Translations under genes and position numbers: made by a program
Assembly (NCBI GenBank): GCA_902523615.1
Contig: CABYZW010000003.1
Location: 14,336 to 78,335, forward strand
DNA: 64,000 nt
Direction of reading: 5' to 3'
Source of the DNA: an uncultured Pelagibacteraceae bacterium
Lineage (GTDB): Bacteria; Pseudomonadota; Alphaproteobacteria; Pelagibacterales; Pelagibacteraceae
The notes under the pieces: generated by a model
What the model was told of the DNA's origin: nothing
The model's input: the letters and a program-made list of their open reading frames with translations, nothing else
Database searches by the model: none
Shown here: piece after piece, positions 28,015 to 63,584 of the stretch
How positions within the stretch are numbered: the stretch's first letter is position 1
Layout of the letters: the number at the start of each line of letters is the position of its first letter

Positions 28015-28106
28015 GGAAGAGTGGGTGAGAGGCTGAAACCAGTCGTTTGCTAAATGACCGTGCGAGGAAACTTGTACCGAGGGTTCGAATCCCTCCTCTT
28101 CCGCCA
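28015..28106 (+). tRNA. tRNA-Ser(GCT)
   Basis: acceptor stem GGAAGAG/CTCTTCC, anticodon arm GTCGT-TTGCTAA-ATGAC, long variable arm, GTTCGAATC T-loop, encoded CCA. Confidence 0.97.
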
Positions 28107-53907: not shown

Positions 53908-53912
53908 TTTAA

Positions 53913-53965
53913 TCCTTTTTAGTACTTTAGCTTATGCTAGGCGCACAATATAGTTCAAATGCCTA
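53913..53965 (-). ncRNA. SAM-V riboswitch aptamer in the metY 5' UTR
   Basis: minus strand reads UAGGCAUUUGAACUAUAUUGUGCGCCUAGCAUAAGCUAAAGUACUAAAAAGGA; P1 UAGGC/GCCUA; the 3' pseudoknot strand overlaps the AAGGA Shine-Dalgarno. Confidence 0.9.
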
Positions 53966-53983
53966 CCGAATTTGGGTGAAATT

Positions 53984-57662: not shown

Positions 57663-57737
57663 GGTCCCTTCGTCTATCGGTTAGGACACGTGGTTTTCAT
57701 CCTCGAAAGAGGGGTTCGATTCCCCTAGGGACCGCCA
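57663..57737 (+). tRNA. tRNA-Glu(TTC)
   Basis: acceptor GGTCCCT/AGGGACC, anticodon loop TTTTCAT, T-arm AGGGG-TTCGATT-CCCCT, encoded CCA. Confidence 0.96.
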
Positions 57738-60964: not shown

Positions 60965-61869
60965 ATAATCTTATAGTAAGAATAGCAGAGGGTTTAGGTA
61001 ACCAACTTTTTATGTACGCAAACGCTTTTGCTTTATCCCAAAAAATTAATTATAAATTATTTATCGATGACGAAAGTGCTTATTTTAAAAAAAAGAACAT
61101 AGAAAAATATCAACTACATAATTTTAATTTATCGTCAAATATATGTGAAGATAAATTTAAATTTAATAACTATATAAAGGACTTTAAAAGAAAGTTTTTA
61201 ATAAAATCAAATTTTTTAAAACGAAAAAAAAATTTTCTAATAGAAGAGAATGATAAATTTAAAAAAACAAAATATTCAAACCTTTCAAATAATTCTTTTT
61301 CTAAAGTTTTATTTGTTGAAGGCCATTATGAGTCAGAAAAATATTTTAAAAATTATAAAAATCAGCTTAAATTAGAGTTTACTCTAAAAAATTCAAATTT
61401 TTATGAGAAAAATAAATATATTGAATTAATAAGAAATAATCCAAATATTGTATCTATTTGCGTAAGACAAAATAGATTTTCGGAAAGAATGAATAATAAA
61501 TTTAATGAAAATAATATTATTGCCTCACAAAATTTTACCAAAAAAACAATCGAGTATATATTTCGAGCAGTTACTTATATTGACAATAAGTTTGATGATA
61601 TGAAATATTTAGTGTGGAGCAACGATTTTAAAGATTTAAGAAATTATTTACCTGAAAATAAATTTATTTTTATTGAAAATAAGGAAAATAAATCACTTAG
61701 CGATTTTTATTTACTACTTAATTGTAAAAATTTTATTGTTGGACCAACATCGTTTCATTGGTGGCCCGCATGGCTTAATTCTAACCAAAACTCTTTAATT
61801 TTAAGACCTAAAGATTTAAATGTCTCTAATAATCTTGATTTTTGGCCCAGTAATTGGATTTCAATTTAA
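60961..61869 (+). CDS. GT11 (alpha-1,2-fucosyltransferase-like) glycosyltransferase
   Basis: EGLGNQLFMYA, EGHYESEKYF, DF.LL..C.NFI..TSFHWWPAWL, P..WI.I. Confidence 0.85.
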   Translation: MNNLIVRIAEGLGNQLFMYANAFALSQKINYKLFIDDESAYFKKKNIEKYQLHNFNLSSNICEDKFKFNNYIKDFKRKFLIKSNFLKRKKNFLIEENDKFKKTKYSNLSNNSFSKVLFVEGHYESEKYFKNYKNQLKLEFTLKNSNFYEKNKYIELIRNNPNIVSICVRQNRFSERMNNKFNENNIIASQNFTKKTIEYIFRAVTYIDNKFDDMKYLVWSNDFKDLRNYLPENKFIFIENKENKSLSDFYLLLNCKNFIVGPTSFHWWPAWLNSNQNSLILRPKDLNVSNNLDFWPSNWISI

Positions 61870-62771
61870 AATTTGATCTTATTAAGAGCATTATTTTTAA
61901 ATAGATTTGCTTCATGTATATATCTTCTTACCATTTGAGTAGTTTTATGACCTGTCATTGCCATGATATTCCGTTCTGCCGCTCCAAACTCAGCAGCTGT
62001 AGTAGCAAAACCCGATCTCAAACTGTGTCCCGCATATCTTGATGAGTCTAAACCTGCTTTATTTGTATATTTTTTAATAATTAGAGCTACTGATTTATCT
62101 GAAATATTAAAAATTTTTCCTTTATTTGAGTTTGTTAATTTAGAATTCATATAATTTTTGATTGCCAATACAGGACAAAATTCCTGATTTTCAAAGTAGG
62201 GTATTGCTTTTACAATTCCTTCGCCCGCTTGATCAGTTTTTGATCTCTTAATTAAAATTTTTACACCTTCACCTACAAATTCAATATCATCATAACATAT
62301 ATTAACCAGTTCAGATCGTCTAAAACCTCCAGCAAAACCAATTAAAATTAAAGCTTTATCTCGAATTTTTTCTTTGTCTATTGCTTTAATAATTAATTTT
62401 AAATCATTGATTAATATAGGTTTTTTTGCTTTTTGTCTTGAACCCAAGCTCCTTTTAATCCCATGCAAATTTTCCATTATAATTGGATGTTTAGTATCAA
62501 GATAATGGCCTCTTAACTTATGAATCACGCTTATAGAGGCTATTCTTCGTTTTAAAGTACTAAATTTTGATGTTTTTGAGAGGTTAGTAATGTATAGAGC
62601 AATAATTTTTGGTTCTGTTGGTATTGAGGAAAAACCATTTTTTGCACAGAAACTTGAAAAATCTTTAAAATCTGATTGATAAGCTCTCAGTGTATTGCTA
62701 GCTTTGGAGTTCTTTAAATTTTTTAAAGTTTCAATTTCTAAGCTTTTAACATCTGTTATTAGTTCATTCAT
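61866..62771 (-). CDS. Cre/Xer-like tyrosine site-specific recombinase
   Basis: N-terminal core-binding domain (SNTLRAYQSDF..STLKRRIASI..HK); full catalytic set R (GFRRSEL), K (RSKTDQ), HxxR (HSLRSG), H (TGHKT), Y (VRRY). Confidence 0.94.
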   Translation of the reverse strand: MNELITDVKSLEIETLKNLKNSKASNTLRAYQSDFKDFSSFCAKNGFSSIPTEPKIIALYITNLSKTSKFSTLKRRIASISVIHKLRGHYLDTKHPIIMENLHGIKRSLGSRQKAKKPILINDLKLIIKAIDKEKIRDKALILIGFAGGFRRSELVNICYDDIEFVGEGVKILIKRSKTDQAGEGIVKAIPYFENQEFCPVLAIKNYMNSKLTNSNKGKIFNISDKSVALIIKKYTNKAGLDSSRYAGHSLRSGFATTAAEFGAAERNIMAMTGHKTTQMVRRYIHEANLFKNNALNKIKF

Positions 62772-62775
62772 ATTT

Positions 62776-62804
62776 ATTTCCGATAACCATTAATTATCGG
62801 AAAT
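62776..62804. repeat. perfect 11-7-11 inverted repeat, candidate lox/dif-like recombination site
   Basis: ATTTCCGATAA (62776-62786), CCATTAA spacer, TTATCGGAAAT (62794-62804); 4 bp upstream of the recombinase ATG. Confidence 0.8.
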
Positions 62805-62831
62805 TATATAATAGGTGATTTTTAATGTCAA
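62803..62831 (-). promoter_or_regulatory. consensus sigma70 promoter of the recombinase gene
   Basis: minus strand TTGACA (62831-62826), 17-bp spacer, TATAAT (62808-62803); predicted +1 near 62796 lies inside the palindrome. Confidence 0.8.
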
Positions 62832-62850
62832 TAGTTTAAATATAAAAATT

Positions 62851-63027
62851 ATGGGTTCAGTTGATGGAGAAATACCTGCAGTTTGGTTTTTAATAACCTC
62901 ATTTGGCTTTATAATTTTAAGTTATATACAATACAAAAATCATGGAAAAAGTATTGAAACAATTTTTTTATCAACTTTAGCGATTGTTTTTTTTATTAGT
63001 TATTTTATACTTGTGTTCAAAGCTTAA
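62851..63027 (+). CDS. small hypothetical membrane protein (two predicted TM helices)
   Basis: AVWFLITSFGFIILSYI and IFLSTLAIVFFISYFILVF hydrophobic segments; ATG at 62851, ORF track uses GTG at 62815. Confidence 0.55.
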   Translation: MGSVDGEIPAVWFLITSFGFIILSYIQYKNHGKSIETIFLSTLAIVFFISYFILVFKA

Positions 63028-63103
63028 TTTATCCCCACAATTCACAGCAATTTTCCTTTTTTTTAAAATCAATTAAAAAGTGATACTAATATAAATATAT
63101 ATT

Positions 63104-63112
63104 TGTTATGAT
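63104..63112 (+). promoter_or_regulatory. extended -10 promoter for the structured RNA
   Basis: TG-T-TATGAT ending 8 nt before the first hairpin. Confidence 0.45.
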
Positions 63113-63120
63113 AATATTAA

Positions 63121-63302
63121 TTAAGGGGCAACTCTTAACTGGCCGATTGGAGAAAAGCCGAGAGGTACAATTCCAAGGGGCAGAAAGCTCTACAAAGCAT
63201 CGCTGAACATGTAGAGCGGGTGACGTGGCGGTAGCTGATCAACGACGCGTCAAAACAACTGTTCTTTGCACCCATAAAAGTGCAAGGAAACAGTGGTTTT
63301 TT
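63121..63302 (+). ncRNA. ~180-nt structured non-coding RNA upstream of MGMT (candidate abundant SAR11 sRNA, IMES-2-like)
   Basis: GC-enriched patch with five stems, two GNRA tetraloops (GCAA, GAGA), a possible loop-loop pseudoknot and a terminal hairpin with U tract. Confidence 0.75.
63252..63302 (+). terminator. intrinsic terminator-like hairpin ending the RNA
   Basis: ACTGTT-CTTTGCAC / GTGCAAGG-A-AACAGT stem followed by GG-TTTTTT. Confidence 0.6.
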
Positions 63303-63584
63303 ATGCAAATGATGCTTAGAGGAACTAAATTTCAATTAAAAGTCTGGAAATACATTAAAACTATACCAAAAGGTAAGGTAAAAACATATAAGCAGGTAGC
63401 TATTGGCATAAAAAGCCCTAAATCAGCTCGTGCTGTTGCTAATGCTTGTGCAAAAAACCCGTATGCTCCAAAAATACCCTGTCATAGAGTGATTAGATCT
63501 GATGGAGATCTTGGAGGTTACTCTGGGAAAGGTGGAATTAATCAAAAGCTCAAATTACTTAGATCAGAAAAGGTAGTGATTTAG
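63303..63584 (+). CDS. ogt: methylated-DNA--protein-cysteine methyltransferase (MGMT/Ogt C-terminal domain only)
   Basis: GTKFQ.KVW..IPKG...TY..A..ARAVANA..N..IPCHRVI with catalytic Cys; start among the ATGs at 63303/63309/63312. Confidence 0.9.
   Translation: MQMMLRGTKFQLKVWKYIKTIPKGKVKTYKQVAIGIKSPKSARAVANACAKNPYAPKIPCHRVIRSDGDLGGYSGKGGINQKLKLLRSEKVVI

What the first reader, a model, noticed from the sequence alone, without database searches (positions are those of the whole stretch)
63104..63302. Highly structured ~180-nt RNA between the recombinase locus and MGMT
Seen: a GC-enriched patch folding into (a) TTAAGGG-GCAA-CTCTTAA (63121-63138); (b) CTGGCC..TTGGA..GCC-GAGA-GGT..TCCAA..GGGCAG; (c) an 8-bp stem GCTCTACA/TGTAGAGC (63187-63217); (d) GACGTG/CGCGTC (63222-63251); (e) a long hairpin plus U6 ending at the MGMT start codon. 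The loop of (c), AGCATCGC, can pair with the loop of (d), GCGGT-A-GCT, as a kissing pseudoknot. An extended -10 lies just upstream. From memory, unverified: very abundant SAR11-associated sRNAs of unknown function were reported in ocean metatranscriptomes, one upstream of a Pelagibacter MGMT gene, and Rfam IMES-2 is a candidate family. Inference: either a stand-alone abundant ncRNA or an attenuator/riboswitch controlling MGMT readthrough. Its position about 320 bp from the recombination site may indicate a link.
Basis: partly seen in the sequence, partly recalled or inferred. Interest (0 to 1): 0.7.

Follow-up and report, generated by a model that had tools for sequence, protein, structure and literature searches.

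The report
Known SAR11 small RNA IMES-2
This is a copy of IMES-2, an already catalogued folded RNA of the ocean bacterium SAR11 with no function found in the papers searched; it is likely a gene of its own rather than a switch for the DNA-repair gene behind it, and two of its loops are predicted to clip together.

Summary
The RNA is real and already catalogued: a full-length Rfam IMES-2 match at 63114-63253 (138.7 bits against a cut-off of 54.7). Its pseudoknot register fails across the family (71% of cells paired), but the same two loops pair in a shifted register (98% paired, about nine independent compensatory changes). The window's copy is the one exception at one kissing pair and needs a bulge. 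The RNA is not a switch for ogt (MGMT): in 38 of 108 loci the next gene points the other way, and a promoter motif and a 3' hairpin travel with the RNA. It is not tied to the recombinase: the palindromic site is at 20 of 20 slots without the RNA and 0 of 33 RNA loci elsewhere. It was found only in the window's family, patchily (27 of 90 genomes). Best reading: a stand-alone structural RNA acting through its shape, with no partner identified. Three earlier notes of this scan found IMES-2 on other DNA. Low novelty.

The parts
63067..63086 (+). Conserved upstream promoter box (CA(A/C)..AAGTGATAC type), 20-21 nt upstream of the -10 hexamer, i.e. not at standard -35 spacing; possible factor-binding site (inferred)
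   Evidence: Box plus extended -10 at 20-21 nt in 123 of 157 unique upstream sequences, shuffles mean 0.05, max 1. The profile scores 33.7 here, next best 14.2 in the 67%-complete own genome.
63104..63112 (+). Extended -10 element; predicted transcription start near 63119
   Evidence: Position; a TGnTWnnnT motif lies in the last 30 nt before P1 in 132 of 157 upstream sequences. The start site is inferred from spacing, not mapped.
63114..63253 (+). IMES-2 RNA core (Rfam RF02035), model positions 1-141
   Evidence: 138.7 bits, gathering 54.7, E 8.1e-36; single match in the own genome
63121..63138 (+). P1 hairpin with GCAA tetraloop
   Evidence: 100% of cells paired, 3 of 7 pairs with two-sided change (part of the set was selected on this stem, so the count is biased)
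63139..63183 (+). P2: long irregular hairpin with an A-rich internal loop and a GAGA tetraloop (63160-63163)
   Evidence: 94.7% and 96.8% of cells paired; 11 of 14 pairs with two-sided change
63187..63217 (+). P3 hairpin; its loop carries the 5' kissing strand (63199-63204)
   Evidence: 8 of 8 pairs with two-sided change; coordinates
63222..63251 (+). P4 hairpin with a G.A/A.G pair; its loop carries the 3' kissing strand (63233-63239)
   Evidence: 98.9% of cells paired; G.A swaps to A.G in 7 of 95 sequences
63199..63239 (+). L3-L4 loop-loop pairing (5 pairs in the family; in this copy 3 pairs plus a mismatch and a wobble, or 6 pairs around one bulged U)
63253..63302 (+). Predicted intrinsic terminator: long hairpin plus T6; not part of the Rfam model
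   Evidence: A 3' hairpin of 8 or more pairs is in the MFE of 99 of 99 loci; hairpin plus T-rich tail in 150 of 156 (loose test); not called by the generic scan
63303..63584 (+). ogt/MGMT-type alkyltransferase gene (93 aa): neighbour, not part of the RNA
   Evidence: PF01035 E 7.5e-32; TIGR00589 above cut-off
62777..62803 (.). Palindrome next to the tyrosine recombinase start: neighbour, independent of the RNA
   Evidence: 21 of 21 RNA-at-ogt loci, 20 of 20 slots without the RNA, 0 of 33 RNA loci elsewhere
61866..62771 (-). Tyrosine recombinase (301 aa): neighbour, independent of the RNA
   Evidence: PF00589 E 1.1e-19; below all Xer cut-offs in NCBIfam; in 87 of 90 family genomes

Best explanation
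This is a gene for IMES-2, a roughly 180-nt non-coding RNA likely made from its own promoter to its own terminator, whose third and fourth hairpin loops are predicted from covariation to pair, and which likely acts through its folded shape, as a stable structural RNA that holds a partner, not as a switch for ogt. Shown: family membership, four covarying helices, the covarying loop-loop pairs, a promoter motif and a 3' hairpin that move with the RNA among three genomic addresses, and patchy presence in one family. Inferred: transcription from about 63119 to 63302; the kiss closes P3 against P4 within one molecule (they are joined by only 4-5 nt), and the two GNRA loops and the invariant A-rich strands dock on helices to give a compact, nuclease-resistant particle; that particle binds or sequesters a protein or RNA-protein complex that is not yet identified. 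ogt is likely expressed by leak through the terminator, a by-product of where the cassette sits.
For: Identity. Structure: 42 pairs, 95.7% of cells paired, 30 pairs with two-sided change, 0 of 500 shuffles as high, slid controls 33-42%. Kiss: with no structure assumed, columns 88:126 and 89:125 rank 6th and 11th of all column pairs by corrected mutual information (z 10.8 and 9.8). On a tree built without the loop columns, pair 89:125 changes 3 times with each column changing 3 times, and pair 88:126 changes 7 times with the columns changing 6 and 7 times. The L3:L4 duplex is -4 kcal/mol or stronger in 95 of 95, L3:L3 in 82, L4:L4 in 90. Stand-alone: 66 of 108 loci have ogt next on the same strand, 38 a convergent gene, 4 other. 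Promoter motif in 123 of 157, absent from all 20 RNA-less slots. No Hfq, ProQ, CsrA or Ro60 family match in 5 of 5 near-complete RNA-bearing genomes. No antisense match in the own genome better than E 6.7. In marine RNA runs, contigs begin to cover the locus at about 63111-63127 in 6 of 8 runs laid.
Against: No partner, ligand or phenotype was found; the functional step is inference by elimination. The window's own copy has the weakest L3:L4 duplex of the loop pairs listed (-4.9 kcal/mol) and is the only one of 95 to break pair 88:126. The fifth kissing pair fails in 10 of 95. One variant (L025) lacks the L4 partner altogether. Covariation cannot tell a kiss within one molecule from a kiss between molecules. 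All runs laid were assembled contigs, which show neither ends, strand nor level and sum over relatives; 2 of the 8 runs gave only low-depth contigs. The generic scan found no terminator. Two contigs run from the RNA into ogt (63199-63353 and 63200-63349), which may be read-through or DNA.
Confidence: 0.55

Rival explanations
1. RNA-only oligomer: L3 of one molecule kisses L4 of the next, and GNRA loops dock between chains, giving rings or cages as in manA, ROOL and GOLLD.
For: Covarying kisses first read as internal proved to be between chains in ROOL and GOLLD (10.1101/2024.12.08.627333, passages). manA RNAs under 200 nt form cages by kissing loops and a GNRA contact (10.64898/2026.07.01.735769, parts 1-2 of 5 read). 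The L3 hexamer is palindromic in 67 of 95 rows, so self-kissing is also possible in most.
Against: Only one kissing pair was detected, against two in each manA pentamer described. P3 and P4 are adjacent and of conserved length, which fits a kiss within one chain. Selection keeps L3:L4 complementarity, not palindromy.
Confidence: 0.25
2. Riboswitch or attenuator controlling read-through into ogt.
For: The terminator's U-run ends at the ogt start codon; 66 of 108 loci have ogt next; two contigs bridge into ogt; an alternative fold that disrupts P4 and part of the terminator exists in this copy, 9.9 kcal/mol above the minimum.
Against: 38 of 108 loci have a convergent gene and one has a small ORF between the RNA and ogt. 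ogt is in 87 of 90 family genomes, the RNA in 27 of 90. Opening the 3' hairpin costs a median 19.5 kcal/mol over 99 loci (minimum 2.5).
Confidence: 0.04
3. Trans-acting base-pairing small RNA that regulates mRNAs.
For: Own promoter with an unusual upstream box, which suggests regulated expression.
Against: The conserved loops covary with each other rather than staying fixed as a seed. No Hfq or ProQ match in 5 of 5 genomes. No significant antisense match in the own genome, which is only 67% complete.
Confidence: 0.07
4. Ribozyme or ligand-binding RNA acting in trans, or a compact store of phosphorus and nitrogen.
For: Invariant unpaired positions, two GNRA loops and a kiss point to a defined tertiary fold. 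Very high abundance in ocean samples is recalled from the 2009 description, not seen here.
Against: No second Rfam family matches the core even at E 10. No conserved substrate-pairing arm or associated gene was seen at the three addresses.
Confidence: 0.07
5. Part of the recombinase module or of a mobile element.
For: At this address it lies in a variable slot beside the recombinase and its palindrome.
Against: The palindrome is in 0 of 33 RNA loci at other addresses and in 20 of 20 slots without the RNA. One match per genome. The viral pattern scan gave one hit, inside a long phage ORF and with no RNA match.
Confidence: 0.02

Closest known systems
IMES-2 RNA motif (Rfam RF02035). Described by Weinberg, Perreault, Meyer and Breaker 2009 (recalled; seen only as a reference-list entry in PMC5643018; paper not held)
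   Same: Full-length match, all four helices, GCAA and GAGA loops, 138.7 bits against 54.7.
   Different: This copy has a changed L4 strand, so the kiss needs a bulge. The Rfam model as printed stops before the terminator and shows no pseudoknot, but cmscan does not print pseudoknots, so whether the kiss was already drawn in the 2009 paper or its supplement is unknown to me.
SAR11_0636 element (Rfam RF01827; Meyer et al. 2009, PMC2704228, section 10 and passages read)
   Same: [quoted passage not shown]
   Different: A different element at other positions, found in 87 of 151 genomes including ones that also carry IMES-2; no match at this locus.
manA, ROOL and GOLLD RNAs (cryo-EM: 10.64898/2026.07.01.735769; 10.1101/2024.12.08.627333)
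   Same: Orphan structured RNAs with covarying kissing loops and GNRA or A-minor contacts; ROOL is described as very abundant and non-essential.
   Different: No Rfam match to any of them. They have several kissing pairs and shown oligomers; IMES-2 has one detected kiss and no structure in the papers searched.
6S RNA (RF00013)
   Same: Abundant stand-alone bacterial RNA of similar length (own knowledge); no 6S match was found in 5 of 5 family genomes tested, so the role could be open.
   Different: No long rod with a central bubble; IMES-2 was not found in 63 of 90 family genomes.

Membership tests
IMES-2 (RF02035) | Covariance-model score above the gathering cut-off over the full model | tested here: met
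   138.7 bits vs 54.7, positions 1-141 of 141
IMES-2 (RF02035) | Four stem-loops P1-P4 with GNRA loops on P1 and P2 | tested here: met
IMES-2 (RF02035) | Occurs in marine SAR11-type alphaproteobacteria (recalled) | tested here: met
   Found only in the window's family: 27 of 90 there, 0 of 60 in the sister family, 0 of 149 genomes of other families of the class; named loci with the same neighbours are Pelagibacteraceae
IMES-2 (RF02035) | Very high abundance in marine RNA (recalled) | tested here: inconclusive
   Contigs of 6 of 8 RNA runs cover the RNA at high nominal depth, but contig depth is no measure of expression
Riboswitch / attenuator | Consistently 5' of a same-strand gene of one functional class | tested here: not met
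   38 of 108 loci have a convergent downstream gene
Riboswitch / attenuator | Conserved alternative fold that competes with the terminator | tested here: not met
   Median 19.5 kcal/mol to open the 3' hairpin over 99 loci; 9.9 kcal/mol for the best alternative in this copy
Riboswitch / attenuator | Ligand binding | not testable with these tools
   Needs in-line probing
6S RNA | Long rod with central bubble; match to RF00013 | tested here: not met
Hfq/ProQ sRNA, CsrA sponge, Y RNA | Partner protein encoded in the same genomes | tested here: not met
   0 of 5 genomes for each of Hfq, TROVE, CsrA and ProQ, with controls positive
RNA-only oligomers (manA, ROOL, GOLLD type) | Covarying loop-loop pairing | tested here: met
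RNA-only oligomers (manA, ROOL, GOLLD type) | Pairing is between chains and gives a defined oligomer | not testable with these tools
   Needs mass photometry or cryo-EM

The most novel reading that the evidence does not exclude
IMES-2 is an RNA-only self-assembling particle: the covarying L3-L4 kiss forms between chains and, with the two GNRA loops, builds rings or cages, made from a dedicated factor-controlled promoter, in the most numerous bacteria of the ocean.
Probability: 0.25. Interest if true: 0.7.

Novelty: already known. Interest (0 to 1): 0.22.

Why it matters
The RNA itself is not new: it is an Rfam family, and this scan has noted it three times before. Its function is open as far as the held library shows (no paper on it; most subscription journals and the 2009 paper are not held). 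Two things here make that question easier to test: a precise, covariation-backed register for the loop-loop pairing with natural compensatory variants to use as controls, and close relatives with and without the cassette. If the kiss is between chains, a very common ocean RNA would join the few natural RNA-only assemblies.

Tried and rejected
SAR11_0636 element as the same RNA or as a mutually exclusive replacement: rejected, it co-occurs at other positions. A diverged RNA hiding in the RNA-less slots: no profile hit in the 20 slots fetched and no promoter motif; the slots seen hold ORFs (middle of the output cut). Phage copies: one pattern scan of viral contigs gave a single hit inside a long phage ORF; one exact pattern is a weak test. 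A regulon sharing the promoter box: no second strong site in the 67%-complete own genome. 6S replacement, Hfq/ProQ sRNA, CsrA sponge, Y RNA. Small-peptide reading: only 37 of 95 rows have an ATG frame of 10 or more codons. Gain versus loss: presence at this slot needs 5 changes on an ogt tree of 41 loci (3-5 in bootstraps), but starred branches force only 1, so the history is unresolved. A family of L4-less variants: L025 is a singleton among 401 genomes. Transcript ends: both read-laying runs had only contigs, so no ends or strand; the run search shares were all under 0.15. A co-occurring protein partner was not searched for genome-wide. Literature: the 2009 IMES paper is not held, and the supplement of PMC5737381 could not be read (main text has no 'IMES'). 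Either may already show the pseudoknot or the promoter. PMC5069720, PMC13414033 and PMC6429828 (passages) gave nothing on IMES-2.

Full report
Observation. The five helices described are in the sequence at the stated places. The stretch is 49% GC in a 28% GC window and folds better than all 200 shuffles (z -4.38). A scan of the whole window against Rfam gives a full-length IMES-2 match at 63114-63253, 138.7 bits against a cut-off of 54.7. No other family matches the core even at E 10.

Surroundings. On the left lie glycosyltransferase genes, a tyrosine recombinase on the minus strand (61866-62771), a palindrome at 62777-62803 and a 58-codon ORF without Pfam match. On the right the ogt/MGMT gene starts at 63303, directly after the T6 run.

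Distribution. The RNA was found only in the window's family: 27 of 90 genomes there and 0 of 60 in the sister family, 12 of 15 in a second genus, 14 of 24 same-genus relatives, and none of 149 genomes of other families in the class. There is one match per genome. Named loci with the same neighbours are Pelagibacteraceae. ogt and the recombinase are each in 87 of 90 family genomes, so the RNA is the accessory part. I fetched the recombinase-ogt slot from 20 genomes without the RNA there (17 with no match, 3 with the RNA elsewhere). None has a profile hit or the promoter motif. In those seen, other ORFs fill the slot and ogt follows directly (the middle of that output was cut). The tallies include one unpublished genome, G111; no claim depends on it alone.

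Not a leader of ogt. Of 108 genome-derived loci (pooled; a genome may occur twice), 66 have ogt next on the same strand. In 27 the next gene is a convergent membrane-protein gene, behind an mnmA-like gene; in 11 it is a convergent SRAP-like gene; 4 are other or too short. The names mnmA and SRAP are recalled from the sequences, not from a family scan. Opening the 3' hairpin costs a median 19.5 kcal/mol over 99 loci; in this copy the best alternative fold lies 9.9 kcal/mol above the minimum. Two RNA contigs do run from the RNA into ogt. This fits terminator leak, which would be how ogt is expressed here, but DNA in the libraries is not excluded.

Not tied to the recombinase. The palindrome is in 21 of 21 RNA-at-ogt loci, at 134-818 bp from the RNA, in 20 of 20 slots without the RNA, and in 0 of 33 RNA loci at other addresses.

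Own promoter and terminator. A GTGAT box 20-21 nt before an extended -10 is found in 123 of 157 unique upstream sequences (shuffles: mean 0.05, maximum 1). In the window the box ends at 63086 and the -10 is at 63104-63112, which predicts a start near 63119. The spacing is too long for a standard -35, and the profile has no second strong site in the 67%-complete own genome, so a dedicated factor is possible but not shown. A 3' hairpin of 8 or more pairs is in the predicted fold of 99 of 99 loci. Against this, the generic scan called no terminator and did not list this promoter. In marine RNA runs, contig cover begins at about 63111-63127 in 6 of 8 runs laid; the other two gave only low-depth contigs. 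Contigs show neither ends, strand nor level, and their depth sums over relatives, so this is only a weak hint of a discrete transcript.

Structure. Alignment A1 holds 95 of 96 unique full-length cores. Left out were the divergent L025, 48 partial hits and all loci, whose search pattern fixed the loops. The metagenome rows were selected on P1, so P1 counts are biased. Over 42 pairs, 95.7% of cells are standard pairs and 30 pairs show two-sided changes; 0 of 500 shuffles reach this, and slid controls give 33-42%.

The kiss. Without assuming any structure, two loop-loop column pairs rank 6th and 11th of all pairs by corrected mutual information. The register is L3 nnnCU with L4 AGnnn; the two central pairs read CG/CG in 70 rows, CA/UG in 11, UA/UA in 6, UG/CA in 5, CU/AG in 1, AA/UU in 1, and CG/CU in the window's copy. 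It is paired in 97.7% of cells with 34 two-sided cells. On a tree built without the loop columns, the changes on the two sides coincide: 3 and 3 for one pair, 6 and 7 for the other, the extra one being the window's copy (110 columns, many open forks). The window's copy is thus atypical: 3 pairs, a mismatch and a wobble in strict register, or 6 pairs around a bulged U, the weakest duplex listed. Whether the 2009 description already shows this pairing I could not check.

How it most likely works. The usual small-RNA chaperones and partners (Hfq, ProQ, CsrA, Ro60) were not found in 5 of 5 carrier genomes, and there is no antisense match or conserved reading frame. What remains is an RNA that acts through a compact tertiary shape. 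I commit to a kiss within one chain and binding of a partner not yet identified (about 0.55 overall; about 0.95 for identity and 0.9 for stand-alone). The main rival is pairing between chains to give an RNA-only oligomer (0.25). In ROOL and GOLLD, kisses first found by covariation proved to be between chains (10.1101/2024.12.08.627333, passages), and manA RNAs under 200 nt form cages this way (10.64898/2026.07.01.735769, parts 1-2 of 5).

What is known. IMES-2 was, from memory, described in 2009 as a very abundant marine RNA; that paper is not held. Searches for the name and related terms found no paper on it in the held library. The SAR11_0636 element of Meyer et al. (PMC2704228, section 10) is a different element that co-occurs at other positions. 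Three earlier notes of this scan reached the same identification on other DNA; my verdict rests on the calls above.

Verdict. A real, already catalogued RNA. The switch and recombinase ideas are not supported, the kiss is supported in a corrected register, and the function remains an inference. Novelty: already known. Interest 0.22.

Noticed in passing
window 61866-62803: A single tyrosine recombinase with a palindrome just before its start codon, in 87 of 90 family genomes and with the palindrome at all 41 slots examined; it lies near mid-contig in many closed genomes (start points not checked). Carnoy and Roten 2009 (PMC2731167, passages) state that Pelagibacter ubique has no dif/Xer system, while describing single-recombinase modules with an adjacent dif in streptococci and epsilon-proteobacteria. 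Candidate overlooked chromosome-dimer resolution module. The outer arms of the palindrome come in two types, and the window's type seems to go with the recombinases closest to the window's.
   Followed up: partly
window 62803-63110; L059-L078: The slot between the palindrome and ogt holds different small ORFs in different genomes, behind a shared promoter-like site: a variable gene slot.
   Followed up: partly
L025:1415-1628 (-): IMES-2 variant at a fourth address whose P4 ends in a GCAA loop and lacks the kissing partner, while the palindromic L3 is kept; P2-P4 are predicted to be rearranged (z -8.3). Singleton among 401 genomes.
   Followed up: partly
L029:1420-1660: The SAR11_0636 'RNA' region carries a GTTC-N7-GTTC repeat and a TGTGGATAA motif, which I recall as the alphaproteobacterial LexA box and a DnaA box; its neighbour is described as an SOS repressor. 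It may be partly a DNA element.
   Followed up: no
window 53909-53973 (-): SAM-V riboswitch, 77.1 bits; also tRNA-Ser at 28015 and tRNA-Glu at 57663.
   Followed up: no
G000, G069, G001, G007, G011: No Rfam 6S RNA match in 5 of 5 family genomes, 4 of them near-complete, with controls positive.
   Followed up: no
L200-L315: Many metagenome contigs end within or next to IMES-2 (48 of 128 hits partial), as expected for a conserved element in variable surroundings.
   Followed up: no
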